Part shown: piece after piece, positions 3,020 through 36,721 of the stretch
How the letters are laid out: every line of letters starts with the position of its first letter
Position numbering within the stretch: position 1 is the first letter of the stretch
DNA from: Candidatus Magasanikiibacteriota bacterium
Lineage (GTDB): Bacteria > Patescibacteriota > Patescibacteriia > Magasanikbacterales > UBA922
NCBI GenBank assembly: GCA_003510435.1
Contig: DOMK01000020.1
Span: 59,523-123,522, forward strand
Length of the DNA stretch: 64,000 nt
Reading direction: 5' to 3'
Program-made: the position numbers and the translations under genes
Notes under the pieces: generated by a model
Database searches by the model: none
Told to the model about the DNA's origin: nothing
Seen by the model: only the letters and a program-made list of their open reading frames with translations

Positions 3020-3058
3020 ACCCTTTTTTTATTATCTTTTTTAGTCTACAATATAAGA

Positions 3059-3943: not shown

Positions 3944-3950
3944 TGCAACT

Positions 3951-6062: not shown

Positions 6063-6090
6063 ATTTTTGGCTTTCTTAAGCCAAAAATTC

Positions 6091-6119: not shown

Positions 6120-6144
6120 TCTCTATATTAATGACAAAATAAGT

Positions 6145-12963: not shown

Positions 12964-13209
12964 ATGTCAGAAATAAAACGTAAAAAAGGTGAATCCTTTG
13001 AAGCTTTTATGCGCCGAATCAAACGGCGTTGGCAACAGTCCGGTAAGTTGTTACAGGCTCGCAAAATTCAATATGTCCAGCCTACCTTGAGCAAGAACAT
13101 GCAAAAGAAACATACCGTCAAAAAGTTGCAAATGGTTTCAAAAATGAATTATCTGCGTAAAATTGGTCGTTTACCAGAAGAAGAAGAAAAATTCACTAAA
13201 AGAAAATAA
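12964..13209 (+). CDS. rpsU: 30S ribosomal protein S21
   Basis: GGAGG Shine-Dalgarno site upstream. The protein is basic and matches the S21 pattern 'ESFEAFMRRIKRRWQQSGKL'. Confidence 0.75.
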   Translation: MSEIKRKKGESFEAFMRRIKRRWQQSGKLLQARKIQYVQPTLSKNMQKKHTVKKLQMVSKMNYLRKIGRLPEEEEKFTKRK

Positions 13210-13675: not shown

Positions 13676-15904
13676 TTGTCCCTGGTTTCCATGCTGACTA
13701 GGACTGACAAAAAATTAAATTGGTTGAAAAAGACTACCACACTGTTTGCGGTTATTTTTGTGGTAGTTTTTTTGTTTTATCCAGTAGCCAATTCATTGGC
13801 AGCTGATCCTGTTTTTCAAGGACCGCAAGAACAGACTGATATCTATGGTTTACAGCCAGTAGCTGATACGATTGCTCTTACCCAGATGGATATCAGACTG
13901 GTAATTGCCCGAATTATAAGAGCAGTTTTGGGTTTATTGGGAATAATTGCCATTTGTATTGTACTTTATGCTGGCTTTATTATAATGACATCTGGTGGCA
14001 ATGAAGAAAAAGTAACTTATGGCAAGAGAATACTAATTAATGGTGTAATTGGTCTTATTATTATTTTGTCAGCTTTTGCGATTGTAAGTTTTGTGATAAA
14101 TGCTTTAGCTAAAATCTATGGCCTTAATATGGGTGGTAGAGTTAGTCGTACGCCAATCATTAGAACTTTTGATGGTAGTGGTGCCCTAGGTAGAGTGGTA
14201 AAAGATCATTATCCATTCCGTGATCAAAAAGATGTAGCAAGAAATACGAGCATCGTCGTGACTTTTGCTCAGCCAATATCTCCAGCTAGTGTGATTATAA
14301 ATAGTAATAATACTTGTTGGCGAGATGACGGTAGTAGTGAACCATTAAAAATAGTTGGTGGCGGAACCGGTTGTCTAAAAGTAGACAATGTGGCTGTACC
14401 ATATTATGGTGATTGTTTTACACCAGATGGTCAGGTATTTAATCAAAATACTGATTGTGATACTTTGGTAACTTCCTCAGTGCAAATATATGAAACATTG
14501 AAAGGGGAATTAGATCCTATTCCAGTGATTGAAGCCGTAGCTCTGGCTAGTTATGAAGATGGGGCACAAAAAAATGTTTATTCTTTAGTTTTCAAACCAA
14601 TTAATTTCTTGGGTAGTGACACTACTAATATAAGTTATACAGTTGTTTTGTCTGATAATATAATGAAGAAACCAATAGCTGGTGATGATGAAATAAGTGT
14701 TTTTGATGGTTATTTGGAAAATTATTATGAATGGTTGTTTGAAACTGGGACAGAATTTGATTTTGATCCACCATATGTAGAAAGGGTTTATCCTTCCTCT
14801 GATCCTAATAAACCAGGTTATCGCAATTCTGTTTTACAAATTTATTTTAATGAACCCATTGACCCCACTGTGGCTCAAGGATATTTTAGCTCCACTAGCA
14901 TTTTTAATAATATAGTGGTGGATAGTTCATCTACCTTGGATATAAAAGGTGAGTGGAAATTATCCAATGGTTATACTATAGCCGAATTTTTATCAGCCGA
15001 TGAATGCGGACTAAATAGTTGTGGTGAAATTATGTTTTGTTTGCCAGTAGGTTGTCCTGAAGAAGATGAAACGTGTAGTGAATCATATGAGGTTTTGGCG
15101 AGAACGGCTGAATTACTCAATAATCCTGATGTACCATTTGGTGCACGATTGTTTACTGGTATATATGATTTGGCTGGCAATGCTTTGAATGGTAACGAAG
15201 ACACTGAAACTGTCCGAACCGCTGAAGGTCAACCAACTAGCACTGTGGCTAATGAAATTAGAAATGATGATGAAGCACCAGACAATTATTGGTGGAATTT
15301 TTTAATTGGTAATAAAAAGGATAAGAGTGCGCCATATATAGAGTATATTACCCCGAGTATTGATCAGGGTAATATTAGTGAATTAGCTCTGGTCAATATT
15401 AGATTCAGTGAATTGATGTGGGCTAGAACTGTGCGTGATTATGTTGGTTTGGATGAATATGAAGCCAACCATTGTTATCAAATAAAAGGTAATGATGTTT
15501 GTTTGAAAGATTTATGGTTTGCTTCTAGGATAACGGTTTCTAGTACCAGTGGAGAAGAAAAGACTATTATAGATGTAAACCATCGTGAATTTGGGCCAAA
15601 TGATACTGATCTTTATTATTTTCCCAAGATTTTTAGCCAGATAAAAGATGCTAATCAGAATTGTTTTTATCCAGGAAGAGGGCCAGGATTGAATGAAGAT
15701 AGTGAGACTACAGAATGTAATGTGGTTTATGATAAGGACGGAATAATGTTGAGTCAGACTGGTTGTGTGGCTGATATGCCAAATTCTGATGCTACGCGCG
15801 ATACTGGTTGTATGACCACTTATCCAGTATCAACTACGGTGGGTAATATTCCAGAGTGTATTAATGAAATAAAAAATAATATAGTTAGCCCAATGAGTGA
15901 ATAA
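13676..15904 (+). CDS. large secreted protein with an N-terminal VirB2/TrbC-like (T4SS pilin-like) two-TM module and a Cys-rich extracellular region
   Basis: A signal peptide is followed by 'IRLVIARIIRAVLGLLGIIAICIVLYAGFIIMTSGGNEEKVTYGKRILINGVIGLIIILSAFAIVSFVINALA'. This module is paralogous to the N-terminus of the next gene. Confidence 0.6.
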   Translation: MSLVSMLTRTDKKLNWLKKTTTLFAVIFVVVFLFYPVANSLAADPVFQGPQEQTDIYGLQPVADTIALTQMDIRLVIARIIRAVLGLLGIIAICIVLYAGFIIMTSGGNEEKVTYGKRILINGVIGLIIILSAFAIVSFVINALAKIYGLNMGGRVSRTPIIRTFDGSGALGRVVKDHYPFRDQKDVARNTSIVVTFAQPISPASVIINSNNTCWRDDGSSEPLKIVGGGTGCLKVDNVAVPYYGDCFTPDGQVFNQNTDCDTLVTSSVQIYETLKGELDPIPVIEAVALASYEDGAQKNVYSLVFKPINFLGSDTTNISYTVVLSDNIMKKPIAGDDEISVFDGYLENYYEWLFETGTEFDFDPPYVERVYPSSDPNKPGYRNSVLQIYFNEPIDPTVAQGYFSSTSIFNNIVVDSSSTLDIKGEWKLSNGYTIAEFLSADECGLNSCGEIMFCLPVGCPEEDETCSESYEVLARTAELLNNPDVPFGARLFTGIYDLAGNALNGNEDTETVRTAEGQPTSTVANEIRNDDEAPDNYWWNFLIGNKKDKSAPYIEYITPSIDQGNISELALVNIRFSELMWARTVRDYVGLDEYEANHCYQIKGNDVCLKDLWFASRITVSSTSGEEKTIIDVNHREFGPNDTDLYYFPKIFSQIKDANQNCFYPGRGPGLNEDSETTECNVVYDKDGIMLSQTGCVADMPNSDATRDTGCMTTYPVSTTVGNIPECINEIKNNIVSPMSE

Positions 15905-15907
15905 AAT

Positions 15908-18900
15908 ATGTTTAATTTTAAGAAAAAATTAATTTTTATATTATTTTCTCTAATTATAGTGATGGGTACTTTTGTTTTTGTTTCCAATGTTTTTGCCCAA
16001 TCAGCTGATGTTTTTGGTTTGAAGCCGGTAGGTGATTCGATTGCCCTCGGTGGACAGGATATAAGAATAACAATTGCAAAGATAATAAGAGTGATTCTAG
16101 GTTTATTGGGTATAATCGCCATGGGAATTGTTTTGTATGGCGGTTTTGTATATATGACATCTGGTGGTAATGAAGAAAAGGTTGCTCAGGCAAAAAAAAT
16201 TATTATTAATGGCATAATTGGCTTAGCGATTATTCTTTCAGCCTTTTCTATTGCGAGTTTTATTATTAATAGTTTGGCTGGGGCAACTATAAATAAAAAT
16301 CCTCCTAATGACAACTTGTCGTGTTTGGATTCTACTTATCGTGAGGAACATCCTGCTAAGTGTGATAAATGTATTAAATGGCCACAGACATGTTGTGAAG
16401 AGTATTTTATTGTCAAAAGTATTACACCTGTCACAAATGCCACCAACATGAATAATGTGGTGATTAGGGTTTTGTTTAGCAAAAAATTGAGTAGTGACTA
16501 TACGAGTAATACAAAGTTACGTGAAGTCGTTCAGGTGTTTGGTTCATCAGGAACTAATATTACTAATAAATTTGATTTTGTTTTAAAAGATGGCTTGTTG
16601 GTAGAATTGACACCAAATAATAATTCTGGTCTGAAATGTGAAGGTACGACTAATTGTTTAGCTGATGGCAATTACACTATAAAAGTAAATGAAAATACCA
16701 AATCTATAAATAATGAACCTCTTACTACGGATGTGGAATTTTGTGGTGAGTATCCTTTGGAAGGAAAATTTATTACTAATCACGAAACTAAGGGTTTTTA
16801 TTTTGATGGGGTAAATGATTATATTGAAGTGACTAGTACAGACATGAATATTACGACGGGTGATTTTACTGTGGCAGTTTGGGCAAAATCAGTTAAGTTT
16901 ATACAAAGATCCTCAATAATTAATAAAGGAGCATATTTTCCAGAAAAAAATATTGGTTATAATATTGGTTTTATAAGTAATCCCAAAAATGTTTGGTTTG
17001 TAGTGAGTGACGGTCCAGCCTCTAGTCCGGCTAACACTCTATCTAGAACATATGATACTTCTACGAGTAGTCGAAGTGGAGTTTTTGATTGGGCACATTT
17101 TGTTCTAGTTAAAACTGGTAATCAAATAAAAGCTTACACAAATGGCGTTTTGGTTGGTACAGCTGGTGGGGTAGATAGTTCAATTTCAAATGTATCTAAT
17201 TTTTTAATTGGGAAAAGTATTGTTAGTAATAAATTTTTTAATGGTTATATTGATGATGTTTATTTTTATAGAAGAGCTTTGAATGATACAGAAATAACTA
17301 GTCTTTTTCAAAAAAATGCTAGTATCCCTAGAGATACAGCTTTGGTAGGTGAATGGAAGTTTGATAATGTCGTGGGTAATAAAGTAATAGATAGTTCTGG
17401 TAGAAATAACAATGCCGTAGTCTATGGCGCGACTTGGGTAGAGGGTACCTCAGGTGGCACATCAGCCCAGACGACTTATAATTTAGGTTTTGATGGAATA
17501 GATGATTATATAGAAGTGTCAGATAATAGTGTTTTAGATTTGACAGATGCCATCTCGGTTTCTACTTGGGTAAAATCTCGTGCTGAAGGGTATATCGTGG
17601 CCAAGGATCCCTATGTGTGGCAGACAGTGGCAAACAATTATATTCCTTTTATGGGGCCTTGGAATTGGGTACAAAATGAAATGCAAGGTACCAGATTTAC
17701 TCCAAAAAAAGATGGTACTGTTGATAAATTATGCAAATATTCAAAGGGCAACCAGACTTTAAAATTGTGGGATAGTTCATTTAATGAATTAGCTTCAGTC
17801 CAATCTTTAAATACTGTTGATGAGTGGAAATGTGAGACAATAACTTCACCTGTTTTAGTTCAAGCAAATAAACTTTATTATGTAGGCATTTGTTGTAATG
17901 ATGGTATCAATTGTATTCGTAGGGCAGAGTCTGGTAATGTGGTTTACCCACTATTAGTTGGAGATGTTGAAATGGGGCGGTCGTTTTCTGTTTCTAATAA
18001 TTCTGGCTGTGCCCTGTCTGGTTTACCAGGGACTTCAGCTAATGCTTTTTTTGTAGATATTAATTTTGTGCCAAGTGGTAGTACACCAGTGGCAGAAATT
18101 TGTAATGATAATCTTGATAATGATGGCGATGGTAAGCTTGACTGTTCAGATCCAGATTGTGTTGGTAATTCGGCCTGTCAAACTACAAAAACCAATGTGC
18201 CCTTTGCCCTTAGTACAATTGGTAAAGGACAATTTTTAATTAAAAAAGATGGGGTAGACCATGTGGTAAATTCCTCAGTAAATATAAATGATAATTTATG
18301 GCATCATGTGGTGGCTACTTATAGTAAGAGCGGTAGCGGTGAAATGAAAATTTATGTGGATGGAAATTTGACTGGCACGGCGACTGGTTATACTGGTGGT
18401 ATGCCCACAAACAATGACCCATTATTTATTGGTCGATCTTATGATCCAGCCCAAACGACAAATTATTTTAAAGGTAATATCCAAGATCTAAAAATTTACA
18501 ATCGAGCCTTGTCTTTGTCTGAGGTTGGTCAACTTTTTAATAAACAAACAGTTCCAACCGGTTTGATTTCCAGTTGGGACTTTAATCTTGGTAGTGGCAC
18601 CAGTCTTTCTGATAATGAAAGAAGAAATATTGGTACATTTAAAGGTGGGGTACAGTGGTCATCAGTGACAATTCCGGCTTCTGGCCCAAGTTCTAATGTT
18701 GGGGTCAAAGATTCTCAATCACCAGAAGTTAGTAGTTTAGCTGTAGACAACCTTATTACTACTAGTACTTATCGTTTGCGAGGGGGCAAGGATTATGATC
18801 TTACTACCCAGATTGCTGATGAAAGTGGTTTTGGTTATTTGCATATAGAAGTAGAAAAAACTAAAGATCATGAAGGCAAAATTGTTTCTCCAGCGCAAAA

Positions 18901-27900: not shown

Positions 27901-30900
27901 CACCCACAATCGTTATTCTGCACGACAAAAATGCAATTTACAGTGCCAATGGGAATTAGGAGAGTGGGCTGTGGGTGATGTGTGTGGTAATGGTGATACA
28001 GAAGGTAATGAGGCTTGTGATGATGGAGATAAAAATGGTACCTATGGTATGTGTGCTGGCCCAAATAGTAGATATAAAACTAATATTGTGGATGCAAATG
28101 GTAATGTTATCCATACTATTAATAGTCTAGTCGGAGAGTGTCAGGGTTTACACCAAGAATATTGTGGTGATAATGTTTTACAAAGTCAGGAATTGTGTGA
28201 AAAGAAAGATGATGTACTGGTATCTTACAGTTTAAATTTGGGGACATGTGGCAAAGACGCTAGTAGGAGTTGTTCTTTAGATGATCAATGTTTTAGTGCT
28301 TTGTCTTTTGATGGTAATAACGATTCGCTGTCTTCAGAACAAGACATTCCGCTTGGTAATGGTCCATTTACTATGGAATTTTGGTTTAAACAAAGTGAAG
28401 TTTTGAGAACAGATTCAGAGCCGATTGTAGCTTTTCATAGAGGTAATAGTCCAGAAGATCCTGATAATATGAAGGCTTATTTTGCTCTAGAAATTGGTAG
28501 AAATAAAAATATTGGTTTTGGGCAAGCTGGTTTTATGAATAGAACTGGTAAATATTCTTATGTAAAGACTAATGATAATGTTTTTTATTTAAACAATTGG
28601 TTTCATATTGCTTTAATGAGTGATGGAACTGGTAAAGTTAGTATTTTTGTTAATGGAGTAGAATTGGCTTCAGTAAGTAATTTTGTCACTAGCGATAATT
28701 TGGCAGTAGATAAAATATATATTGGCAATCCACCTTATTTTTTACAATATGGTTTGACCGGAGTAGTGGATGAATTTAAAATTCATAATCAAGTGATAGA
28801 TCCTGCTCTTTTTAGAACTTATTATGATAATACAGATCTTATTAGTGAGTATCTCGATTCAGCGGTTGGCTGGCATCTTGATGAAGGTATGGGTAGTGAT
28901 ATTTATAATTATAAAAATAGTACTTTTGACGCTTCAATAAGTGGGGCAAAATGGGTGACGCCAGATATTTTTACTGATACTTGTGGTAATATTTCAAAAA
29001 AATATACTTATTTGCGTTATGGCGACCAGTGGAGAGGTGTGGCTGTTTCAGCCACTCAATGCAGTAGTGGCAGTCCGGCTGTAAAAGCTATTTGTAAAAT
29101 TCTTAGAACGGCAATTCATCTTGGTGTAACATCTTTGGTAAATGGCGGTGATTATAAAGATAATTATTGTAGTAATAGTCTAGATAATTTGGTTTTGTGT
29201 AAACAAAGTAGTGATTGTGTTGTGCCGACCACCACTGCATATATATTTACAGAAAATGAATTTTTGAATAGTGATTTGACTGGTATGATGACGTCTTTTA
29301 CCAATGCCACTACCTCTCTGGGCACTTGTGCTCCTTTCCCAACCGGAAAGAAATATGGCGCACCATATAATTTTTATAAAGATTTATCTTGCGCTTGGAA
29401 CTGTCAAAACTATGGTTCATACTGTGGTGATGGTATGAGAGATGCTGGCTATGGTGAGGAGTGTGATGATACCAATACTGTAAATGATGATGGTTGCAAT
29501 ATTTATTGTAAAACACAAGGTACTGTTCCACCTACCACTACTATTGTTACGGAGCCAGAGTCTGATTTGACTTGTGGAAATAATATAAAAGATAAAGGCG
29601 AAGAATGTGACGAGGGGGTTAATAATGGTATTGAATGTAGTATTTCTTATGGCAAGGGTTGTACTTATTGTGCATCTGATTGTAAAAAGAAAATTGTTAA
29701 AGATCCAATTAATTTTTGTGGTAATGGACAGATTGATTTAATAGGTTATGACAAGACTGCTAATGAACCAATATATGAAGCTTGTGATGTAAAAAATGGT
29801 GTTGTCCAGACTAGTAGTAGTGGCCATATTGTAGATGCTTATTGTTACAATTCACAAATGCCTGGCAAAAATAAATTTTTCGCTGGTAGTTTTAGTTGTG
29901 AAAGTAGTTGTACCAAGTTAGTAGATAAGTGTTTTGATTGTGGGGCATTTAATAGAAAATTAGAGGACAATGGTACTGCTGTGCCTAGATTTGACATTTT
30001 TAGTGTTTTGACACCGACTACGACTGCTAAAATTACTTTTAATAATCACACTGATGATAGAAAATTGAAGTTTGGTTATTTTGTCCCTGGTACCAATGTG
30101 TCTAGTAATGGTACCTCTACTCTAAATTATTCTCATGATTTAGATGTTAGTTCTACCAATCCTATTAGTTTGGGAGATGTTAATATAGAAACCAATCCAA
30201 TTTGTAATAATTATTCTAATCCTACGCCACTAGCCACCAGTTCTTATTATTGGTTTGAAGGTGATAATACTTATTCAAGTGCTGCAAATTTTGCACTTAT
30301 TCCTAATAATCGTTTATTCTATTACCCAGTTAATAATGAAGCTGATATAGTAAAAAATCAGTATATAGTAGCACCTAATCCACCCGAAGGTAGTTTCCGG
30401 GTGGTGGTGAAGTGGTCTGATAAATATGTTCCAGATACGGAAGTCAAATTTCAAGGTATAGTTTATAATTCAGGTTTGGACGAAAAGCAGACTATAAACT
30501 ATGTGGATGCCAATTTATCAACAAGTAAAGATTTGGCTGATATTACTGGTAGCGCTAATAGGGTGTGTAATAGTAATAATTATGAAGTAGATTGTATTGG
30601 TAAACAATATGATGGGGTCTATGTTCATGGGCAGGGTGATTTTAATGGTACTCATGTTCAGTCATTCACCATTGATACCTATGCTCGCGGTTTTGATACC
30701 AAGAATTATGCTTTTGTAGTTGACCAGTGGGGTAAAGTAAAACGTATTTCAGGTCAGACAGATTCTAGCCCAATTTCGCCATATATGAATAGTGATTTGA
30801 CAGTAGAAGTCTATGAACACAAGAGCGATGGTGGCAATATTTATCATCCCGATCATACGTATACAATCAAGAATGAAACCACTGCTGATCCTAAGGCTGA

Positions 30901-31735
30901 ATATTGGCATGTGTTTAATTTGGAATATAATTCTAGTCTAGACAAATATGAAGTGAAAGAAATTGGGGGTATTAGTTATGATGAGACACCGATCATTCAT
31001 GCTGTACCAGCCGTAGGTCAGGTAGCAGTGGATTATACACCGATGACAGTAGATAATAGTGGTTCAGGTCTTTATTTGGGACCAGGTACTTTTCCAACCA
31101 GCTTTTCTGATTCAGATTTGGCAATAGTTTTGGAATATCCAACAGACGTTATACAAAATTTTTGGAAGTATCAGTCATCTCTTTATGGATTGATAGCAGA
31201 TGATAACGGGTTAGTAGAAACGAATGATTGTAATCCTAGCGGAATATATGATTATCCAGATTATTATACACCAAAAGTGTGTTATAATAGTTTAAATAGT
31301 AGTAATAAAGTTGTGCGAACTATTGTATCTGGAGCTTGTAATTATGATAATGGAAGTGGAAATTACGAGTGTGAACGCCATTTTATCTTCGCAAAATTAC
31401 CCACAGCTCCAAATTATTATCGTCTAATAAACAGAAGCACTTTTCAATCGTTTAGACCAAATCTATTTTTGAATGGTAATGATAAAATACCAAGTGCTTA
31501 TTTTGACGGTTTGAAAGTTTATGTAGGATTTAATGTTAATGGTCATTTACGATTTTATAAATTTCCACTTTCATTCCTACGTCTAAATTACAGTGGTGAC
31601 TACAGTCGTTTAAACACTCAATCAGAGTGGTATGTTATGAAATTTGCCAATCTCAATGGCGATTTAAACCTTAATTTTGTGAATAAATTTTTACCTAATA
31701 TTATATATGAAGAAGACTATAAAAATTATGATTAG
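15908..31735 (+). CDS. giant (5275 aa) multidomain surface protein: pilin-like N-terminal anchor, LamG/ConA-like lectin domains, IPT/TIG repeats, Myxococcus-type Cys-rich repeats, BNR/Asp-box beta-propeller
   Basis: The ORF is uninterrupted. LamG motifs include 'GFYFDGVNDYIEVT...NGYIDDVYFYRRAL' and 'DNLWHHVVATY...FKGNIQDLKIYNRAL'. IPT-like segments include 'PMIEGVSPMMSGAGGNWITVYGKHFG'. Repeated 'CGNGxxExGEECD' units and 'DGGxxW' beta-propeller repeats are present. Confidence 0.85.
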   Translation: MFNFKKKLIFILFSLIIVMGTFVFVSNVFAQSADVFGLKPVGDSIALGGQDIRITIAKIIRVILGLLGIIAMGIVLYGGFVYMTSGGNEEKVAQAKKIIINGIIGLAIILSAFSIASFIINSLAGATINKNPPNDNLSCLDSTYREEHPAKCDKCIKWPQTCCEEYFIVKSITPVTNATNMNNVVIRVLFSKKLSSDYTSNTKLREVVQVFGSSGTNITNKFDFVLKDGLLVELTPNNNSGLKCEGTTNCLADGNYTIKVNENTKSINNEPLTTDVEFCGEYPLEGKFITNHETKGFYFDGVNDYIEVTSTDMNITTGDFTVAVWAKSVKFIQRSSIINKGAYFPEKNIGYNIGFISNPKNVWFVVSDGPASSPANTLSRTYDTSTSSRSGVFDWAHFVLVKTGNQIKAYTNGVLVGTAGGVDSSISNVSNFLIGKSIVSNKFFNGYIDDVYFYRRALNDTEITSLFQKNASIPRDTALVGEWKFDNVVGNKVIDSSGRNNNAVVYGATWVEGTSGGTSAQTTYNLGFDGIDDYIEVSDNSVLDLTDAISVSTWVKSRAEGYIVAKDPYVWQTVANNYIPFMGPWNWVQNEMQGTRFTPKKDGTVDKLCKYSKGNQTLKLWDSSFNELASVQSLNTVDEWKCETITSPVLVQANKLYYVGICCNDGINCIRRAESGNVVYPLLVGDVEMGRSFSVSNNSGCALSGLPGTSANAFFVDINFVPSGSTPVAEICNDNLDNDGDGKLDCSDPDCVGNSACQTTKTNVPFALSTIGKGQFLIKKDGVDHVVNSSVNINDNLWHHVVATYSKSGSGEMKIYVDGNLTGTATGYTGGMPTNNDPLFIGRSYDPAQTTNYFKGNIQDLKIYNRALSLSEVGQLFNKQTVPTGLISSWDFNLGSGTSLSDNERRNIGTFKGGVQWSSVTIPASGPSSNVGVKDSQSPEVSSLAVDNLITTSTYRLRGGKDYDLTTQIADESGFGYLHIEVEKTKDHEGKIVSPAQKMMATDYYYGPSVAQGSNAPFSAPYQFSHPLNFKNSSTTIYTAGLYTVRVTVYDIDNNRTIKTLIVSLIPESCTNGQLDPGEVTSDEGGVCGRGEGESCDTDNDCSYSLRCIDHLGDGNKVCTAYPMIEGVSPMMSGAGGNWITVYGKHFGEESGNIQFAVGNHPTTSTGSWANANLADCEQDVWHDKWVIVQVPEDNTTLPLYSTSTIKLQTTSTIQVGGVYIKPYDTTVDDWGLDSGQPGLFTKNTEVYPGLCSVGIINPIIDPETELVVVEAGENRGLPGDEIEAIGQNLGDDRNGGKLLFGGDNVNTQVSDWNDTNILSVVPELTAEWYGVYAQMGSTGGSKKSNAVPFHVLDEGFLRAPIIESIDPPTTTPGSYITIYGKRFGKQVGQYKGRVFLSVSKTEAKNCLDGTPEVDKCLELSDAGFPQECSETWFNDHVIVGIPKIIPQIFRDNYQNTLLTQGEVATDLLSSAGLGSEHIVNSYHNYVKINDSETFLLMGRSLEVDVVLDDLATSTGQFSKNSTQWKKNRYVLIKSPTSTDTYADFKMRIEHTVDVADGAVKRTLYVESDTVRVYSMIQPNYSVSFPLQNDVKRFKFKIKPGYDGADKKLFSYLSTSTDPNVEPGTPSLANTSDRLFTALVSSTKPLFLGYNTVIGSNNVYTLFGIIKSLKINNDALVDDPNAYFRPYIILESSAEEPLNTSGNDQYTIINGDPAPGICLISPASGPAPLPVGEFLTLYGNNFPLDPFVYFRGPNSDPNNVSSTGGWLEAEDVSLIPLAGGGQMITTTIPYSETILLGEGPHTVKVKKNTTPIAVSNGLDYLVIDCTKASKEESTRMESRYQCCTAGKDLGKWKLDSSVCDGQVREAGYVWRFTTGIIKLPPYVVEQCDQEHWNDPGVTLKFPSPVPWIGWKSGDSVCLNASVAVYFSRSMDENTINSSTVKMYKCTATEDNTTGCTTAIPLEDDEIILSSQVLYIRQNPPSSDLTSSTWYQVKLSKDITSYEEQQQVGTTTIIRELLKPTEPCDNGDYAYCYYFKTGTGQCNLEGVYINPLYHRARLLGIVQSPFFPYIMTLEGINNPPHPYYYLLWGKANQPCTIINVDGLGWVWDSIDDTKAVSINAPKSGQYTDSRAKIRALQNTAPGTVDITAEATTTVTIDIDGQTVTSTEHFLASTTLKVDLYDPQVIEWWPDCINSCANGTVGVRFNMPMVTNTYPGGLILEKCSDEFCDTIVNSIPVTTTIASIEIYEVAPINNLLPNTWYRVTVTGTIFSIGRIDASGNVLANGDPLIPHVWRFRTKMVDEICILDKASLYPDPFVAHFIDEKTIYNVMPISAPNQCNPNGQKLNPWNYGWQWDVVATSTLTSNYDVATSTHFEEAGTFKPYCDFACLLAGSNYRDDVRQPFICGNGVIEPGEDCDIATTTTSTDSNPAQVHEIAGQSCNLSCLRPGNPDIGTGTNQCGNGTTEYIYGEECDTAKPSEINYCKPNCTWEGSSQLVQNRSNLVSQCGSGSVTKGEDCDLGITSTTIPEGKIGCSDKCLHTGTILSQMWCDVSTNTMQVGTTTRSINEIGECNHAASICGNSVLESGEECEFVYNSNVWQQERIKIFGEAGDFQIVTSTVVTSTKNICSNKCLLENICGQNYIDLNTAFTTSSFRCAYPGEGCRNDCHIRGASVAYTLPSMCGDTVDGVGEYPMCELRTSTALGQKPLQIVTAIGEGAVDPETNSQNARIKATAINYKNSDGSVETLIIPVDGFGTYGLYCGYTEYTTADANGNYNDCPGDSVMVGAGSDMCCRPRLYRQEAYPADGTGLLGASEEGVCRNTYIEAKFRGEIDPDTIENNAYIVSGHASGHTCLSTEILFSNQITSTLLAYEPGEQIPGGFWSKLWYHIKTFFVRLFAGNVYASLFTVSDPVWCASPLKYQTNYEYNQVGDAKASTTTISFYINNLLEPETNYVVFLRGGAEGIKDTNGVGIRGADDIDSGAGTLYQLKDSWLFKTNTEICTIDNLLVLPSDYLFQTPNTTSTFHVLALTDTLQKIVPTNEYNWEWVWGPQNNELFSIPAVGYPGDSDYAVLASTNLEGHVYAVVQAEIEDLTRQAPVDGLDPLPVDPDFGTQNHTTAYFNLTSSFCENPWPPVVGGVWTPFEDSDYNFSFNYCADAGLTDNTTDDLPYLDVVEMENKVCNGSNISCNTDADCPGLLYTDQNWNARFYAVPDPDKTGFCGFVVPVSSPDSQIYIGQTGPVACAGDAMCKSNSTLVTWANAKIVSLPAGYNLSVANHLLCAGIANSSPAQCVVDPNKEVLKKYLFVADKNDDAIGLQILRNPDRLSALNWFRDKFKLATTNPQVIELNGYDAITDGENYYVNALNADTANHHVYNNIYQISLNKGMQANTKNVFDQIFNNFKFNANLLDVRMCGYADGSIDLSRNTKCSSDLDCYNAVNVGHCGIGSGDWNGVNFVGSNLNSLSVLSDNELWVSDYNGKLYYTNNGGNTWINEATSTAILSGKYFKKVDFVDSSHGWAVDNNGIVFKKTVDTWQNLGSVTSTSGFEYRDAFFINTNNAWVVAGKSGNAKSRVFKTLDGGSVWQEEPVYYYHSNGVTLLDATTFGPSKIFFTPDSQGWGIGSRMAGSGTDVYGIIFKRDNDQNRWLVVSTTNYLALVNQFNDIYFANDSIGFIVGNNGLVLKTTDAGNNWLDISTSSFSDINLTAVHFYDANKGVMVGNKTGDTKGYVLKTLDGGATWEKYHLPVNTGEMRDAFINSSTSMTVLGANYILNNDTEERICRSDSDCFNGNTCYGYEEKFCVAPKAKLLNDWTRVRDVADIQKGIEAYNFVKGYYPDLKKIHTSPSDPNEAQFSSYLPGYVTSRWSSWGAFGSKVLGLSGIASDPLNIWQNCPANFEQTTCWDETNLSYYCAYPSSVYEYKFVSTSPGYSLNIPFEYLTVVDNGEDGDILGDMLPNTSTIQTNRACTPGQIESLLGDHCGDGMVTPSNNEQCDPVGSLGALVVSSTHNRYSARQKCNLQCQWELGEWAVGDVCGNGDTEGNEACDDGDKNGTYGMCAGPNSRYKTNIVDANGNVIHTINSLVGECQGLHQEYCGDNVLQSQELCEKKDDVLVSYSLNLGTCGKDASRSCSLDDQCFSALSFDGNNDSLSSEQDIPLGNGPFTMEFWFKQSEVLRTDSEPIVAFHRGNSPEDPDNMKAYFALEIGRNKNIGFGQAGFMNRTGKYSYVKTNDNVFYLNNWFHIALMSDGTGKVSIFVNGVELASVSNFVTSDNLAVDKIYIGNPPYFLQYGLTGVVDEFKIHNQVIDPALFRTYYDNTDLISEYLDSAVGWHLDEGMGSDIYNYKNSTFDASISGAKWVTPDIFTDTCGNISKKYTYLRYGDQWRGVAVSATQCSSGSPAVKAICKILRTAIHLGVTSLVNGGDYKDNYCSNSLDNLVLCKQSSDCVVPTTTAYIFTENEFLNSDLTGMMTSFTNATTSLGTCAPFPTGKKYGAPYNFYKDLSCAWNCQNYGSYCGDGMRDAGYGEECDDTNTVNDDGCNIYCKTQGTVPPTTTIVTEPESDLTCGNNIKDKGEECDEGVNNGIECSISYGKGCTYCASDCKKKIVKDPINFCGNGQIDLIGYDKTANEPIYEACDVKNGVVQTSSSGHIVDAYCYNSQMPGKNKFFAGSFSCESSCTKLVDKCFDCGAFNRKLEDNGTAVPRFDIFSVLTPTTTAKITFNNHTDDRKLKFGYFVPGTNVSSNGTSTLNYSHDLDVSSTNPISLGDVNIETNPICNNYSNPTPLATSSYYWFEGDNTYSSAANFALIPNNRLFYYPVNNEADIVKNQYIVAPNPPEGSFRVVVKWSDKYVPDTEVKFQGIVYNSGLDEKQTINYVDANLSTSKDLADITGSANRVCNSNNYEVDCIGKQYDGVYVHGQGDFNGTHVQSFTIDTYARGFDTKNYAFVVDQWGKVKRISGQTDSSPISPYMNSDLTVEVYEHKSDGGNIYHPDHTYTIKNETTADPKAEYWHVFNLEYNSSLDKYEVKEIGGISYDETPIIHAVPAVGQVAVDYTPMTVDNSGSGLYLGPGTFPTSFSDSDLAIVLEYPTDVIQNFWKYQSSLYGLIADDNGLVETNDCNPSGIYDYPDYYTPKVCYNSLNSSNKVVRTIVSGACNYDNGSGNYECERHFIFAKLPTAPNYYRLINRSTFQSFRPNLFLNGNDKIPSAYFDGLKVYVGFNVNGHLRFYKFPLSFLRLNYSGDYSRLNTQSEWYVMKFANLNGDLNLNFVNKFLPNIIYEEDYKNYD

Positions 31736-31741
31736 TGTTTT

Positions 31742-32155
31742 ATGAAAAAAAATATTTTTATTGCATTGATAATTATATCAATTTTAACAATCATTGGATT
31801 GGTATATTTTTTCTTTTTTCGTAATATTAAAAATAATTTGATTCAGCAAGATAAAGATAATACACAAAAAGTTTCTGATGTGGTAGATGTAAAAGAACCA
31901 GAAGTTAAACAAAATATTGTAATAAGTAATCCTCAGGGTTTGCCAGATAGTGATTTTGATGGTGTGTCTGACGAAGATGAAGCCAAATTAGGTTTGAATA
32001 ATGCTGACTATGACACTGACCATGATGGTATTAGCGACAAAGCCGAGATTGATTATGGAACTGACCCAAAGAAATTTGATACAGATGGTGATGGTTATTC
32101 TGATGCTGTAGAAATTATGGGCGGTTATAATCCGTTGGGAGAAGGGAAGTTGTAA
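31742..32155 (+). CDS. membrane-anchored small protein with three dockerin/EF-hand-like Ca-binding loops and a C-terminal GYNPLGEGKL motif
   Basis: It has an N-terminal TM helix, then 'DSDFDGVSDEDE', 'DYDTDHDGISDKAE' and 'DTDGDGYSDAVE'. Confidence 0.6.
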   Translation: MKKNIFIALIIISILTIIGLVYFFFFRNIKNNLIQQDKDNTQKVSDVVDVKEPEVKQNIVISNPQGLPDSDFDGVSDEDEAKLGLNNADYDTDHDGISDKAEIDYGTDPKKFDTDGDGYSDAVEIMGGYNPLGEGKL

Positions 32156-32358
32156 ACTAATACACCACATTAAATTGTAGTTTTGATATTGTATACGTGT
32201 TTGTAAGTCTAGATAGAAACACAGATTAAACTGATGAAACTGATTTTAACGGATTTGTGTACGCGGATAAGTATGATCAGTTTTTATCTGTTAGATCTGT
32301 TAAATCCGTGTATCTATCTAATCTATTTTAATAAAAAATAATTTATAATTTATTTAAT

Positions 32359-33273
32359 ATGTTTGATGATCAACAAAACAATCCAGTCGGAGGTGTGCCA
32401 AATAATTTACCAATTGGTGAACCTGTTCCACTAGGTCAAGGCGAGCCAGATGATATTTTTTCTGGTGTAGAAAAAGTTGTACCAGAGCCACCACAAATGG
32501 GCGGTAGTGTTATTAGTGAAACACCAGTCGTTGGAGCATCATCGGCTTTGGGGGCAGGAATATTACGTCCAAAAGTCCAACCAGTAGATTCTTTTGCTTC
32601 GGATATGAGTGGTGATTTGCCACCTGTATTATCACAACAACCATCAACTAGAATTGAACAAAATATTGTTCAGCCTAGTAATATGGGTAATTATAATTTA
32701 GATCAACAACTACCAAGTCAGATGGCACCACAGCAAGATATTTATAAAATAAAAGAACCAGCCTTGGGTAGTGGATTAGTAAAATTATTTGTCACTGTAG
32801 TAGTATTGGGAATTCTGGGTGGTGGTAGTTGGTGGATTTATAATTCTTTTATTAAAAGTGATAATGTTTCTAATGATACTGTAGTTGATAATGGAGGAGA
32901 AGCATCTGATGTTGTTGATACATTGCCGGCCGAAGGTAAGGCTGTCAAAGTAGCGGAAGATACAGTACCAAGTGATTCCAATGTAGTTGACACTGGATTG
33001 GCTGGTGATATTAAAGATGACCAAATTTTATTTGGCGAACCAATTGATAAAGATTCTGATGGTTTGGACGATGATAGAGAATTAAGTATTGGTACTGATC
33101 CGAATAATTGGGACACTGATATTGATGATCTTGGTGACGGGGATGAAGTGACAATTTGGAAGACTGATCCTTTAAATCCTGATACTGATGGTGATACTTT
33201 TTTGGATGGAGCAGAAATAAAAAATGGTTATAATCCAGCGGGCCCGGGAAAGCTTTTTGAACCACCTAAATAA
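32359..33273 (+). CDS. paralogous membrane-anchored protein with a Pro/Gln-rich region and a C-terminal D-x-D-x-D-G / GYNPAGPGKL module
   Basis: It has an internal TM helix. The C-terminus reads 'DKDSDGLDDDRE...DTDIDDLGDGDE...DTDGDTFLDGAEIKNGYNPAGPGKL'. Confidence 0.6.
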   Translation: MFDDQQNNPVGGVPNNLPIGEPVPLGQGEPDDIFSGVEKVVPEPPQMGGSVISETPVVGASSALGAGILRPKVQPVDSFASDMSGDLPPVLSQQPSTRIEQNIVQPSNMGNYNLDQQLPSQMAPQQDIYKIKEPALGSGLVKLFVTVVVLGILGGGSWWIYNSFIKSDNVSNDTVVDNGGEASDVVDTLPAEGKAVKVAEDTVPSDSNVVDTGLAGDIKDDQILFGEPIDKDSDGLDDDRELSIGTDPNNWDTDIDDLGDGDEVTIWKTDPLNPDTDGDTFLDGAEIKNGYNPAGPGKLFEPPK

Positions 33274-33380
33274 ACAAACATTTAAACAGCACAACACATA
33301 AACATTTAAACATTTCGTTGTCTAGGGATAAAAATTGTAGGGTGTTGCTCTGTTGTTATGTTTAGTGTTTAAATGATAAT

Positions 33381-34550
33381 ATGTTTGGTAGAAATAAAAA
33401 AGAAAATAAAAATGATCAACTATTGGCAAATAATAACATTCAGGTAATACCGAATGAATTTTATGGTACAGCTGATCCTGTAATTCACTATGAAAAAAGT
33501 TCAACTGGTGCGAGTGGTGATAACCTGAAAAATGTTAATATAATGGATAATAATACAAAAATTCCTAATGCTTTTTTTGCTAGTTTAGGAAAAAATAAAA
33601 GAATTATTTTTATCGTTCTCACTAGTATTATTTTTTTATTAGCTGTAGTGGGGATTGTTTGGTATTATCTAGGTCAGGCGGGAATCATTGGTAAAACACC
33701 AGCCGATGTAGTTGTAGAAAAAACAGAAGATAATAATATTGAGACTACTAATCCTGTCAATGAAGATAACAATATTAACTCTGAAGATTCTCAAATAACA
33801 ACCGGGACTTTAGATCTCGCTATTGTTAGTACCACGATTGATAATAATGTCAATCCACAAACTCCAGATTCTTTGTTAGAACAACCAATAGATTTTCCTG
33901 GTGTAATTTTGACTAATAGTGCTGATGTAGATAGTGATTCGCTAACTGATACTGAAGAAGAACTTTTTGATACGGATAGTGGCGTGTGGGATACAGATAG
34001 TGATGGCTATTATGATGGTCAAGAAATGGTTAATTTGTATAACCCAAAAGGGATTGCTCCAGTGAAATTAATTGACTCTGGTTTAGTTCAGGATTATATC
34101 AATCCGATTTGGCAATATCGCGTTTATTATCCAATTGCTTGGCAACAGGGTGAAGTTGACAAAGGTTTAAAACAAAGTTTATTTAGTGCTATTACTGGAG
34201 ATTTTGTGGAGATCTTGGTTGATAATTTACAACCAGGGGAAAGTTTTAATAGTTGGTTTGCCAGGCGGGCTCAAGGTCAGAAGTATGAAGATTTATTGTC
34301 ATTTATTAATTTATTTAAAGAAAACGGCTATAAAAGAAAAGATGGTTTGGTAGCTTATTTTGTACAAAATAATAATGTTTACATCATGATTTATCATCCT
34401 GGTGTAACCGGCTTTATACCATTTAGACATGTGATGGAAATGATGGTAACTAGTTTTCGTCCGAGTAAGACTATAGTTGAAATACCAGACCAAGTGGCTT
34501 TGCCACCCGTACCTTCTTATGAAGATGTTAGTACCGGAACACAATTTTAG
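33381..34550 (+). CDS. paralogous membrane-anchored protein with the D-x-D-x-D-G / 'LYNPKGIAPVKL' module followed by an unknown C-terminal domain
   Basis: It has a TM helix, then 'DVDSDSLTDTEEELFDTDSGVWDTDSDGYYDGQEMVNLYNPKG'. Confidence 0.55.
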   Translation: MFGRNKKENKNDQLLANNNIQVIPNEFYGTADPVIHYEKSSTGASGDNLKNVNIMDNNTKIPNAFFASLGKNKRIIFIVLTSIIFLLAVVGIVWYYLGQAGIIGKTPADVVVEKTEDNNIETTNPVNEDNNINSEDSQITTGTLDLAIVSTTIDNNVNPQTPDSLLEQPIDFPGVILTNSADVDSDSLTDTEEELFDTDSGVWDTDSDGYYDGQEMVNLYNPKGIAPVKLIDSGLVQDYINPIWQYRVYYPIAWQQGEVDKGLKQSLFSAITGDFVEILVDNLQPGESFNSWFARRAQGQKYEDLLSFINLFKENGYKRKDGLVAYFVQNNNVYIMIYHPGVTGFIPFRHVMEMMVTSFRPSKTIVEIPDQVALPPVPSYEDVSTGTQF

Positions 34551-36636: not shown

Positions 36637-36692
36637 ACAAAACTTATACACAGTCTTATTTTGACGGAAGGGCATAAAAAATATAAAATACT

Positions 36693-36721
36693 AAGTGGAG
36701 ACCTCTCCACTTATTTTATTT
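36693..36721 (+). terminator. rho-independent terminator after ftsA (aagtggag acct ctccactt plus a T-run)
   Basis: An 8-bp stem is followed by attttattt. Confidence 0.6.

What the first reader, a model, noticed from the sequence alone, without database searches (positions are those of the whole stretch)
13676..34550. Locus of giant pilin-anchored surface proteins with dockerin-like partner genes
Two adjacent genes (742 aa and 5275 aa) begin with the same signal peptide plus two-TM hairpin module (…LGLLGIIA…IVLY.GF..MTSGGNEEKV…IINGxIGLxIILSAF.I.SF.IN.LA). This module resembles VirB2/TrbC-type T4SS pilins. It is followed by very large extracellular regions, which in the 5275-aa protein are built from LamG lectin, IPT/TIG, Cys-rich 'CGNGxxExGEECD' and BNR beta-propeller repeats. 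Three co-oriented genes follow. Each encodes a TM-anchored protein carrying Ca-binding D-x-D-x-D-G loops (positions 1, 3, 5, 9 and 12 are acidic, as in dockerin/EF-hand loops) and a conserved 'GYNPxGxGKL' motif. This architecture could be a surface adhesion/attachment apparatus, for example a cell-surface nanofibre with Ca-dependent docking partners, as expected for an episymbiont. To my knowledge it is not a described system.
Basis: partly seen in the sequence, partly recalled or inferred. Interest (0 to 1): 0.85.

Follow-up and report, generated by a model that had tools for sequence, protein, structure and literature searches.

The report
Giant adhesins anchored by secretion-system pilin modules
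An uncultured ultrasmall bacterium (Candidatus Magasanikbacteria) has two adjacent surface proteins, one 5275 residues long, whose membrane anchor is a complete VirB2-like conjugative-pilus subunit; three calcium-binding membrane proteins always follow them, and I found no published description of this pilin-plus-giant-adhesin arrangement.

Summary
Two adjacent + strand genes (737/742 aa and 5275 aa) start with the same module: a signal peptide plus a two-helix hairpin. Both modules pass Pfam's threshold for PF18895 (T4SS_pilin) and keep every invariant residue of free-standing 120-140 aa Patescibacteria pilins.

The ectodomains are a rod of Ig-like domains in the 737-aa protein. In the giant they are LamG, DUF4082, TIG, Big_5, Cys-rich repeat and Ycf48-like propeller domains.

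The three downstream genes encode single-pass membrane proteins. Their Ca-binding loops are bacterial thrombospondin type 3 repeats (PF18884), not dockerins. The third also has a PsbP/Mog1-like C-terminal domain.

The five-gene block recurs in every related Magasanikbacteria locus examined, always between yqeY and ybeY-(dgkA)-ftsA-ftsZ. No T4SS ATPase lies nearby.

The pilin modules are more conserved than the ectodomains. The two modules of one genome resemble each other more than modules from different genomes do.

Best reading: these are modular VirB2-type pilins that display adhesins. They probably dock to, or join, the pilin/T4SS apparatus encoded elsewhere. The link to the TSP3 genes rests on adjacency only.

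I rate it a new variant of a known kind, with moderate to high interest.

The parts
13691..15904 (+). Gene 1: a 737-aa modular pilin (742 aa if read from the TTG at 13676). It consists of a signal peptide, a VirB2-like pilin hairpin and a rod of Ig-like domains.
13888..14110 (+). Pilin module of gene 1: two hydrophobic helices joined by the loop MTSGGNEEK.
   Evidence: It is direct repeat D1, 71% identical in DNA to 16057-16279. The Pfam stretch covers aa 76-140. AF2 helices span 68-99 and 105-143.
14198..15901 (+). Ectodomain of gene 1: all-beta, several Ig-like (Big_5-type) domains, with conserved cysteines.
   Evidence: AF2 secondary structure with pLDDT above 90 over most of the region. 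Invariant Cys columns appear in alignment A2.
15908..31735 (+). Gene 2: a 5275-aa giant modular pilin/adhesin. Its only hydrophobic segments are N-terminal, and the ectodomain holds 150 cysteines.
   Evidence: The ORF is intact at 5275 aa in the independent JGI assembly (5257 aa as called in Logan).
16057..16279 (+). Pilin module of gene 2.
   Evidence: Pfam T4SS_pilin scores 38.3-44.6 bits. TrbC/VirB2 matches at E=0.0015 over profile positions 4-98 of 98. NCBIfam Mbov_0395 pilin-like conjugal transfer protein scores 33 bits, below its cut-off of 40. The module is 46-69% identical to free-standing 111-240 aa pilins.
16805..18526 (+). Variable lectin cassette: Laminin_G_3 (aa 300-463), DUF4082 (594-671), acidic double-disulfide repeat (728-757), Laminin_G_3 (762-873).
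   Evidence: This segment is mostly absent from orthologous giants.
19274..19960 (+). Two IPT/TIG domains (aa 1123-1195 and 1277-1351), part of the conserved core.
   Evidence: The segment is conserved in 22-30 of 36 related giants.
21650..22792 (+). Big_5 Ig-like domains (aa 1915-2005 and 2192-2295), within the conserved core spanning aa 1700-3400.
23114..23671 (+). First cluster of Cys-rich acidic repeats of the form CGNGxxExGEECD (4 copies).
   Evidence: Regex positions. The family call (TIGR02232/DUF4215) comes.
26852..27121 (+). Best-scoring stretch of the Ycf48-like (PSII_BNR) beta-propeller; further blades follow. This is a variable insert.
   Evidence: PSII_BNR scores 54.9-61.3 bits against a cut-off of 27. 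It is present in only a few orthologues.
28310..28804 (+). Third Laminin_G_3 domain (aa 4135-4299), a variable insert.
29423..29611 (+). Second cluster of Cys-rich acidic repeats (2 copies).
   Evidence: TIGR02232 scores 28.2 bits against a cut-off of 20.8.
31742..32155 (+). Partner 1: a 137-aa protein with an N-terminal TM helix, three TSP3 Ca-binding repeats and a C-terminal GYNPLGEGKL.
   Evidence: TSP3_bac scores 50.3 bits against a cut-off of 25, in 3 stretches. The TM helix is at aa 1-29. It is conserved in L009, L010, L012 and L013 and missing in some loci.
32359..33273 (+). Partner 2: a 304-aa bitopic protein. It has a conserved cytoplasmic N-terminus (MFDDQ...NLPxGEPEDxF...SALGAGILRPK), a TM helix at aa 134-161, TSP3 repeats and a C-terminal GYNPAGPGKLFEPPK.
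   Evidence: TSP3_bac scores 26.1 bits against a cut-off of 25. See alignment A6. There are 652 homologues, and every named hit among the best 120 is labelled Magasanikbacteria or unclassified Patescibacteria.
33381..34550 (+). Partner 3: a 389-aa bitopic protein. It has a conserved cytoplasmic motif IPxxFYGGKDPVIY, a TM helix at aa 71-104, a variable spacer, two TSP3-like loops plus NLYNPxGxAPVKLIDSGL, and a PsbP/Mog1-like C-terminal domain (about 34053-34475).

Best explanation
The locus encodes two 'modular VirB2-type pilins'.

Proposed mechanism:
1. Each protein is exported by Sec and its signal peptide is cleaved.
2. The pilin hairpin then sits in the membrane with both ends outside. The C-terminal ectodomain is therefore displayed on the surface of this wall-bearing, single-membrane ultrasmall cell.
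3. The 737-aa protein displays a rod of Ig-like domains. The 5275-aa protein displays a conserved scaffold (TIG, Big_5, Cys-rich repeats) carrying exchangeable ligand-binding cassettes. These cassettes are LamG lectins and a propeller here, and VWA, CBM or LamG in relatives.
4. Together they act as an adhesin for a host or partner cell surface.
5. The pilin module is not a passive anchor. Through it the two proteins pack with each other and with the small pilins encoded in tandem arrays elsewhere in the genome. This docks the adhesins to, or incorporates them sparsely (tip or base) into, the VirB2-type pilus/T4SS apparatus whose VirB4 ATPase is also encoded elsewhere.
6. The three downstream bitopic proteins place Ca-binding TSP3 repeats, and one PsbP-like domain, just outside the membrane, and have conserved cytoplasmic motifs. 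They are most simply read as a Ca-dependent membrane-proximal platform that belongs to the same surface structure.

Shown here: the domain content, the topology, the conservation, the synteny and the co-evolution of the two modules.

Inferred: adhesion, incorporation into a pilus, and any contact with the TSP3 proteins.
For: Pilin identity:
- PF18895 is above threshold in both proteins.
- All 36 aligned modules hit PF18895, and 35 of 36 also hit TrbC/VirB2 at E<1.
- The fusions keep every invariant column of free pilins.
- The best database relatives of the module are 111-240 aa stand-alone pilins, 46-69% identical.

Topology:
- Only N-terminal hydrophobic segments are present, and the ectodomain holds 150 cysteines.
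- AF2 predicts the helical hairpin.

Conservation of the arrangement:
- The mid-then-giant pair is adjacent in 43 of 45 loci where both genes are visible.
- Wherever sequence downstream of the giant (or of its second part) could be read, TSP3 genes follow: nine loci via the 389-aa/304-aa homologues plus five complete giants in the metagenome loci.

Selection on the module:
- Module identity among orthologues is 57-59%. The ectodomains are 39% and 27% identical, and array pilins 38%.
- The mid and giant modules are 66.5% identical within a genome and 55.2% between genomes, n=32. The DNA is only about 68-71% identical with many synonymous differences, so this is not recent gene conversion.

Adhesin character:
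- LamG, TIG, Big_5, the propeller and the Cys-rich repeats are present.
- Variable cassettes sit on a conserved core. Relatives carry VWA, CBM or LamG.

Machinery elsewhere:
- The same contigs carry the pair and a pilin array: FLOH01000043.1 holds L020 and L069, and Ga0210019_1000020 holds L037 and L095.
- Magasanikbacteria GW2011_GWC2_37_14 has the orthologous locus (P0191, P0421). It is listed as VirB4-positive in Table S1 of PMC12102498.

Literature context:
- No PrgB-like adhesin was detected for the Patescibacteria T4SS (PMC12102498). These proteins could fill that role.
Against: - No T4SS or T4P ATPase, VirB6 or VirB3 lies within 64 kb.
- In Magasanikbacteria even the small-pilin arrays are not next to VirB4. 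The T4SS link therefore rests on homology of the pilin module only.
- A 5000-residue ectodomain cannot sit on every subunit of a packed pilus. Incorporation could only be sparse, at the tip or at the base, and none of this is tested.
- The TSP3 genes are as tightly linked to ybeY-dgkA-ftsA-ftsZ as to the giant. The gaps are 204 and 108 nt upstream of partners 2 and 3, but only 5 nt between partner 3 and ybeY.
- The whole neighbourhood is syntenic across the order, so adjacency is not independent evidence of function.
- No expression or localisation data exist.
Confidence: 0.5

Rival explanations
1. The pilin hairpin has been co-opted purely as a membrane anchor. The two proteins are ordinary surface adhesins or fibrils of an episymbiont and have no relation to a pilus or a T4SS.
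For: No T4SS genes lie nearby. Giant membrane-anchored surface proteins are common in CPR bacteria (PMC8080830). The size of the ectodomain is incompatible with dense pilus packing. The locus lies among core housekeeping genes.
Against: A generic anchor should drift, yet the module is the best-conserved part of both proteins. It keeps all invariant pilin residues, including the loop motif MT(A/S)GGNEE. The two modules co-vary within genomes without recent gene conversion.
Confidence: 0.3
2. The three TSP3 membrane proteins are not partners of the adhesins. They belong to the envelope or cell-division block that follows (ybeY-dgkA-ftsA-ftsZ). For example, they could link a cytoplasmic partner through their conserved N-terminal motifs to the wall or surface layer.
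For: Partner 3 is 5 nt from ybeY, and no terminator was found before ftsA. Partners 2 and 3 have conserved cytoplasmic motifs. Gaps of 204 and 108 nt separate partners 2 and 3 from the genes before them. The small partner 1 is dispensable in some loci.
Against: The fold of partner 3 is PsbP/Mog1-like, not FtsQ/POTRA-like. The five genes are exactly the lineage-specific content between yqeY and ybeY, two genes that are neighbours in other bacteria (from my memory of the Bacillus subtilis rpsU-yqeY...ybeY-dgkA region; not tested here). Partner 1 starts 6 nt after the giant's stop codon.
Confidence: 0.35
3. One reading: the partners carry dockerin-type modules that plug into cohesin-like domains of the giant, as in a cellulosome.
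For: The loops are EF-hand-like D-x-D-x-D-G motifs with acidic residues at positions 1, 3, 5, 9 and 12. One orthologous giant has a faint Dockerin_1 hit of its own.
Against: No Dockerin_1 match appears in any partner at E<=10, whereas TSP3_bac is above threshold. No cohesin domain was found in the giant or in the 737-aa protein. The partners are membrane-anchored, with the repeats next to the membrane.
Confidence: 0.07
4. The pair is a structural envelope component, such as an S-layer-like coat or spacer, needed by every Magasanikbacteria cell rather than a host-binding adhesin.
Confidence: 0.15

Closest known systems
VirB2-like pilin arrays of the Patescibacteria T4SS (Southlakia epibionticum ML1, Nanosynbacter lyticus TM7x; PMC10633639, PMC12102498, PMC12857230)
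   Same: The pilin family is the same (PF18895/PF04956), with the same signal peptide plus hairpin architecture, in the same phylum. Multiple divergent paralogues occur per genome.
   Different: The described pilins are small (about 120-200 aa), lie in tandem arrays, and are often inside the T4SS cluster. Here a complete pilin carries a 600-aa or 5150-aa C-terminal ectodomain. The two genes form a fixed pair far from any T4SS gene. Their modules are more conserved than array pilins (57-59% against 38%).
Modular type IV pilins, such as PilB (vWA) and PilC (ConA-like lectin) of Streptococcus sanguinis (PMC8179133)
   Same: The design principle is the same: a small pilin 'carrier' module with a bulky adhesive 'effector' module grafted on the C-terminus. 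Lectin and vWA modules recur.
   Different: The pilin superfamily is unrelated. Type IV pilins have a class III signal peptide and a single N-terminal helix and are assembled by PilB/PilC ATPase machinery. No N_methyl signature is present here. The published extreme is 860 residues, against 5275 here.
T4SS-associated adhesins: VirB5 tip protein (Gram-negative) and PrgB (enterococcal pCF10)
   Same: The proposed role is the same: attaching a T4SS-bearing cell to its target cell.
   Different: VirB5 and PrgB are not pilin fusions, and PrgB is sortase-anchored to the wall. No homology was detected here.
Giant surface proteins of ultrasmall episymbionts or predators: Vampirococcus membrane proteins of 1392-4163 aa (PMC8080830), and the 'dockerin-type' giants of Omnitrophota that carry TSP3 repeats (bioRxiv 10.1101/2023.11.21.568195)
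   Same: They are very large, extracellular, multi-domain proteins with attachment-type domains. Ca-binding TSP3 and dockerin-type repeats occur in the same functional context.
   Different: Those proteins are anchored by ordinary or C-terminal TM segments. Their TSP3 repeats are inside the giant itself rather than in separate small membrane proteins.
Myxococcus TSP3 proteins CglD (gliding adhesion complex) and MtsD (cell-cell cohesion)
   Same: Partners 1 and 2 match the TSP3 regions of these NCBIfam models. They are Ca-binding repeats in surface adhesion machinery.
   Different: The matches are to the repeats only (21.9-29.5 bits against cut-offs of 400-800). CglD is a 1124-aa lipoprotein with a VWA domain. 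The partners here are short bitopic proteins.

Membership tests
VirB2/TrbC-type T4SS pilin (Pfam PF18895 T4SS_pilin, PF04956 TrbC) | HMM match to PF18895 above the gathering score | tested here: met
   31.7 bits (737/742-aa protein) and 38.3 bits (giant) against a cut-off of 26.6. The isolated module scores 44.6 bits.
VirB2/TrbC-type T4SS pilin (Pfam PF18895 T4SS_pilin, PF04956 TrbC) | HMM match to the classical TrbC/VirB2 model PF04956 | tested here: inconclusive
   The giant's module gives E=0.0015 and 19.1 bits (cut-off 27.9), but it aligns over profile positions 4-98 of 98. Of 36 related modules, 35 match at E<1, the best at 3e-6.
VirB2/TrbC-type T4SS pilin (Pfam PF18895 T4SS_pilin, PF04956 TrbC) | Cleavable signal peptide followed by two hydrophobic helices joined by a short polar loop | tested here: met
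   Hydropathy segments, AF2 helices at 4-29, 68-99 and 105-143, and alignment A4.
VirB2/TrbC-type T4SS pilin (Pfam PF18895 T4SS_pilin, PF04956 TrbC) | Small stand-alone subunit (precursor about 100-150 aa) | tested here: not met
   The proteins are 737 and 5275 aa, with the ectodomain continuing directly after helix 2.
VirB2/TrbC-type T4SS pilin (Pfam PF18895 T4SS_pilin, PF04956 TrbC) | Encoded with T4SS machinery (VirB4, VirB3, VirB6) | tested here: not met
   None is present in the 64-kb window or within +/-10 kb in related loci. VirB4 is reported elsewhere in a genome that has the orthologous locus.
VirB2/TrbC-type T4SS pilin (Pfam PF18895 T4SS_pilin, PF04956 TrbC) | Structural similarity to solved conjugative pilins; polymerisation into a lipid-containing pilus | tested here: inconclusive
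Dockerin (Pfam PF00404 Dockerin_1) with a cohesin partner | HMM match to Dockerin_1 in the partner proteins | tested here: not met
   No hit at E<=10 in any of the three proteins.
Dockerin (Pfam PF00404 Dockerin_1) with a cohesin partner | A cohesin domain in the proposed receptor | tested here: not met
   No cohesin family appears among the Pfam hits of the giant (scanned whole and in 10 overlapping pieces) or of the 737-aa protein.
Bacterial thrombospondin type 3 repeat (Pfam PF18884 TSP3_bac) | HMM match above the gathering score | tested here: met
   The 137-aa protein scores 50.3 bits and the 304-aa protein 26.1 bits, against a cut-off of 25. The 389-aa protein is not detected by the HMM. 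It shows one regex loop, and alignment A3 shows two conserved acidic loops across 50 homologues.
Bacterial thrombospondin type 3 repeat (Pfam PF18884 TSP3_bac) | Ca2+ binding by the D-x-D-x-D-G-x-x-D-x-x-E loops | not testable with these tools
   The motif is present and conserved. Metal binding was not measured.
Modular type IV pilins (IPR012902 prepilin-type N-terminal domain) | Class III signal peptide / N-methylation motif and a single N-terminal hydrophobic helix | tested here: not met
   No N_methyl hit. The architecture is a Sec-type signal peptide plus a two-helix hairpin. It works like a modular pilin but is not a member of this family.
PsbP/Mog1-like fold (C-terminal domain of the 389-aa protein) | Fold similarity to PsbP, Mog1, LpqN, DcrB | tested here: inconclusive

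The most novel reading that the evidence does not exclude
Magasanikbacteria build a previously unseen surface organelle. It would be a VirB2-type filament or membrane platform whose dedicated subunits are two co-evolving pilins, fused to an Ig-like rod and to a megadalton multi-lectin adhesin. It would be held or gated at the membrane by three Ca-binding TSP3 proteins. It would be assembled independently of the classical T4SS gene cluster. In effect this would be a new class of pilus-anchored adhesion apparatus for episymbiosis.
Probability: 0.15. Interest if true: 0.85.

Novelty: new variant of a known kind. Interest (0 to 1): 0.6.

Why it matters
Patescibacteria make up a large share of bacterial diversity. 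They depend on attachment to host cells, yet their attachment machinery is largely unknown outside a few cultured Saccharibacteria.

Their T4SS is essential in the one system tested and unusually has pilins, but no adhesin has been found for it.

A conserved pair of pilin-fused adhesins would give a concrete, testable candidate for how an uncultured class recognises its partner. It would also extend the 'modular pilin' principle from type IV pili to the unrelated VirB2 pilin family. The variable lectin cassettes are candidate determinants of host range.

Tried and rejected
The 5000-aa version timed out. Orthologues were reached through the neighbouring genes instead.
- I considered that the 389-aa protein was an FtsQ/DivIB-like divisome protein because it sits upstream of ftsA. 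Its C-terminal domain is PsbP/Mog1-like, so I rejected this.
- I looked for a diversity-generating retroelement target (template/variable repeat pair) in the giant. Only the pilin-module repeat and short chance repeats were found.
- Promoter and terminator scans did not define transcription units. The only convincing hairpin lies between ftsA and ftsZ.
- I tested for recent gene conversion between the two modules. I rejected it because the DNA is only about 68-71% identical with many synonymous differences.
- The newly described Pam pilus of CPR bacteria (bioRxiv 10.64898/2026.03.03.709456) has Ig-like pilins joined by donor-strand exchange. It is a different system found in other classes.
- I tried to find the TSP3 trio without the pilin pair, or the reverse, in more distant relatives. 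Every locus reached had both, so the functional link could not be separated from shared ancestry.

Full report
**What is in the sequence**

The window is about 35% G+C. It comes from a Candidatus Magasanikbacteria metagenome-assembled genome (Patescibacteria, class ABY1 in the classification used by PMC12102498). The 389-aa and 304-aa proteins are 100% identical to NCBI proteins DEB09_05765 and DEB09_05760 on a 125-kb contig.

- 13676/13691-15904
- 15908-31735
- 31742-32155
- 32359-33273
- 33381-34550

The first gene probably starts at the ATG at 13691. The identical database entry P0241 is 737 aa.

The giant ORF is recovered intact in independent JGI and Logan assemblies, so it is not an assembly artefact.

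The surrounding genes are housekeeping genes:
- Upstream: signal peptidase I, HisRS, a bS21-like ORF and YqeY.
- Downstream: YbeY, diacylglycerol kinase, FtsA, FtsZ and NrdR.

Nothing in the 64-kb window resembles a T4SS or type IV pilus ATPase or channel protein.

**The shared N-terminal module**

The two N-termini align at 44% identity over about 200 residues and 68% over the 82-residue core. They are the only long direct DNA repeat in the region (13888-14110 and 16057-16279, 71% identical).

Both pass Pfam's curated threshold for PF18895 T4SS_pilin, at 31.7 and 38.3 bits against a cut-off of 26.6.

The giant's module also aligns end to end with the classical TrbC/VirB2 model, below threshold (E=0.0015). 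Of 36 related modules, 35 hit that model at E<1.

NCBIfam gives a sub-threshold match to the mycoplasma ICE 'pilin-like conjugal transfer protein'.

The closest database relatives of the module are stand-alone pilins of 111-240 aa from Patescibacteria, 46-69% identical. In the alignment these free pilins end about ten residues after helix 2. That is exactly where the ectodomains of the two window proteins begin.

Hydropathy finds hydrophobic segments only at the N-terminus of the giant. An AlphaFold2 model of the 737-aa protein (pLDDT 87.6) shows a signal helix, a disordered spacer, a helical hairpin and then an all-beta ectodomain.

A cleaved signal peptide followed by two membrane helices places the C-terminus outside the cell. 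This fits the 150 cysteines and the lectin and Ig domains that follow.

**The ectodomains**

The giant contains, in order:
- Laminin_G_3
- DUF4082
- an acidic disulfide repeat
- Laminin_G_3
- two TIG domains
- Big_5 domains
- four CGNGxxExGEECD repeats
- a Ycf48-like BNR propeller
- a third Laminin_G_3
- two more Cys-rich repeats, with TIGR02232 above its cut-off
- a C-terminal stretch of about 700 residues with no family match

Comparison with 36 related giants shows a conserved core at aa 1-300, 1000-1450, 1700-3400 and 3800-4100. The LamG/DUF4082 block, the propeller and the third LamG are variable inserts. Orthologues carry VWA, CBM_4_9 or other combinations instead. In three loci the giant is split into two genes, and the second has its own signal peptide.

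**The three downstream genes**

Each has a single TM helix. The motif D-x-D-x-D-G-x-x-D-x-x-E occurs in the window only in these three ORFs.

The family is the bacterial thrombospondin type 3 repeat, PF18884. It scores 50.3 and 26.1 bits against a cut-off of 25. No Dockerin_1 match appears even at E<=10, and the giant has no cohesin domain.

GYNPxGxGKL aligns with the 'GTDPxxx' half of the preceding repeats, so it is the terminal, degenerate half-repeat.

The 304-aa and 389-aa families also have conserved cytoplasmic N-terminal motifs: MFDDQ...GEPEDxF...SALGAGILRPK and IPxxFYGGKDPVIY.

**Conservation elsewhere**

The 737-aa family is large, with 602 representative clusters at E<=1e-30, nearly all 600-780 aa.

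Eight loci from species-representative genomes were found, most of them named Magasanikbacteria. The order is lepB-hisS-yqeY, then the roughly 700-aa pilin fusion, then the giant pilin fusion; the last, L005, ends before the giant gene.

A metagenome scan with the pilin profile returned 80 loci. Of these, 44 are of this fusion type and 31 are tandem arrays of 5-14 small pilins. In 43 of 45 loci where both genes are visible, the order is mid-sized gene then giant, adjacent.

In the nine loci reached through homologues of the 389-aa or 304-aa proteins, and in the five complete giants of the metagenome loci with readable sequence beyond them, TSP3 genes follow. The loci that extend far enough then show YbeY, usually DAGK, FtsA and FtsZ. 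The small 137-aa gene is sometimes absent.

However, the housekeeping genes on both sides are equally syntenic, so adjacency is not independent evidence that the TSP3 proteins work with the adhesins. I could not find a lineage in which the two are separated.

**Is the pilin module more than an anchor?**

Three results bear on this:
- Among orthologues the module is 57-59% identical. The first 500 ectodomain residues are 39% identical (737-aa family) and 27% (giant). Small pilins in arrays are 38% identical to one another.
- The modules of the two fusion families form one subclass. They are 55% identical to each other and 42-43% identical to array pilins.
- Within a genome the two modules are 66.5% identical, against 55.2% between genomes (n=32). 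The DNA of the window pair is only about 68-71% identical with many synonymous differences. Recent gene conversion does not explain this.

This is what would be expected if the two modules contact each other or a shared, co-evolving partner.

Contigs that carry the pair also carry a pilin array. In Magasanikbacteria the arrays lie next to an SBP gene, a nucleotidyl transferase and glycosyltransferases. They do not lie next to VirB4.

According to Table S1 of PMC12102498, Magasanikbacteria genomes encode VirB4. These include GW2011_GWC2_37_14, which has the orthologous locus.

**Mechanism proposed**

Shown:
- Two Sec-exported proteins are anchored by a complete VirB2-like pilin hairpin and display large extracellular adhesin-type domains.
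- They form a fixed, co-evolving pair, followed by three bitopic Ca-binding-repeat proteins.

Inferred:
- The ectodomains bind a host or partner surface, and the variable lectin cassettes set specificity.
- The pilin modules dock the adhesins to, or insert them sparsely into, the pilin/T4SS apparatus encoded elsewhere.
- The TSP3 proteins form a Ca-dependent, membrane-proximal part of the same structure.

From established knowledge, not tested here: C-terminal extensions of F-pilin are displayed on the pilus exterior. A C-terminal graft is therefore geometrically plausible, but a 5000-residue domain cannot decorate every subunit.

The main rivals are:
- a pure membrane-anchor role for the hairpin;
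- a separate envelope or division role for the TSP3 trio;
- a structural, S-layer-like role for the pair;
- the cohesin-dockerin docking model, which the HMM results weaken.

**Comparison with what is known**

- VirB2-like pilins in Patescibacteria, including essential pilin series in the Southlakia T4SS cluster and arrays of 2-11 pilins, are published (PMC10633639, PMC12102498, PMC12857230). Those papers treat them as small proteins. They report that no PrgB-like adhesin was detected.
- Modular type IV pilins follow the same 'carrier plus effector' design in an unrelated pilin family (PMC8179133).
- Giant surface proteins of CPR and Omnitrophota are known.
- Five full-text searches found no description of VirB2-type pilins fused to large or giant ectodomains, or of this five-gene block.
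- Public databases already carry the Pfam annotation on these proteins.

I therefore classify it as a new variant of a known kind.

**Verdict**

- Observation: confirmed.
- Interpretation: partly supported. The pilin call, the adhesin reading and the conserved partners hold. The dockerin call does not, and docking is untested.
- Interest: 0.6.
- The most novel reading not excluded is a dedicated pilus-anchored adhesion organelle with Ca-binding platform proteins. I give it a probability of about 0.15.

Noticed in passing
window 55231-63171 (+): A second giant ORF of 2646 aa. Its only Pfam hit is a calcineurin-like phosphoesterase (Metallophos) domain at aa 265-479.
   Followed up: no
window 12964-13209 (+): An 81-aa very basic ORF (MSEIKRKKGESFEAFMRRIKRRW...) upstream of yqeY. 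It looks like ribosomal protein bS21 but has no Pfam hit. The order rpsU-yqeY ... ybeY-dgkA recalls a conserved Firmicutes neighbourhood. If so, the five surface-protein genes would be one lineage-specific insert.
   Followed up: no
L069 1-20000; L096 2376-16623; L097 3719-14178: In Magasanikbacteria-type contigs, the tandem arrays of 9-14 small PF18895 pilins lie directly downstream of an NTP_transferase gene and an SBP_bac_1 solute-binding protein gene. They lie near glycosyltransferases, not next to VirB4. In L096, type IV pilin-like (N_methyl) genes lie just upstream.
   Followed up: partly
L097 4628-4996: A bAvd / 23S_rRNA_IVP-type gene, which resembles the accessory protein of diversity-generating retroelements. 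It sits between the NTP_transferase gene and the SBP gene at the head of a pilin array.
   Followed up: no
L069 3404-4780, 7341-8465, 8484-9446: Some array members have the pilin module at the C-terminus, after an N-terminal region of 230-390 aa. One has a Cys-rich DUF4215 repeat. Ectodomains can therefore be grafted on either end of the hairpin.
   Followed up: partly
L007 12243-22662; L025 9977-20375; L042 4444-12836: The giant gene is split into two genes. The second starts with its own signal peptide at the position homologous to about aa 3880 of the window giant (SSYLPGYVTSRWSSWG).
   Followed up: partly
window 13888-14110 and 16057-16279, and 32 related loci: The two pilin modules of one genome are more alike (66.5%) than modules from different genomes (55.2%). 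They are also more alike than orthologues are (57-59%). This holds despite many synonymous DNA differences.
   Followed up: yes
window 32359-32780 and 33381-33590: The 304-aa and 389-aa TSP3 proteins have conserved cytoplasmic N-terminal peptide motifs: MFDDQ..NLPxGEPEDxF..SALGAGILRPK..YxIKEP and IPxxFYGGKDPVIY. Their binding partner is unknown.
   Followed up: no
window 36692-36713: A strong terminator-like palindrome (9-bp stem, readable on both strands) between ftsA and ftsZ. It is the only convincing hairpin in the 31.5-37 kb stretch.
   Followed up: no
window 6052-7926, 51895-54187: Four ORFs (624, 144, 256 and 364 aa) have no Pfam family even at E<=1.
   Followed up: no
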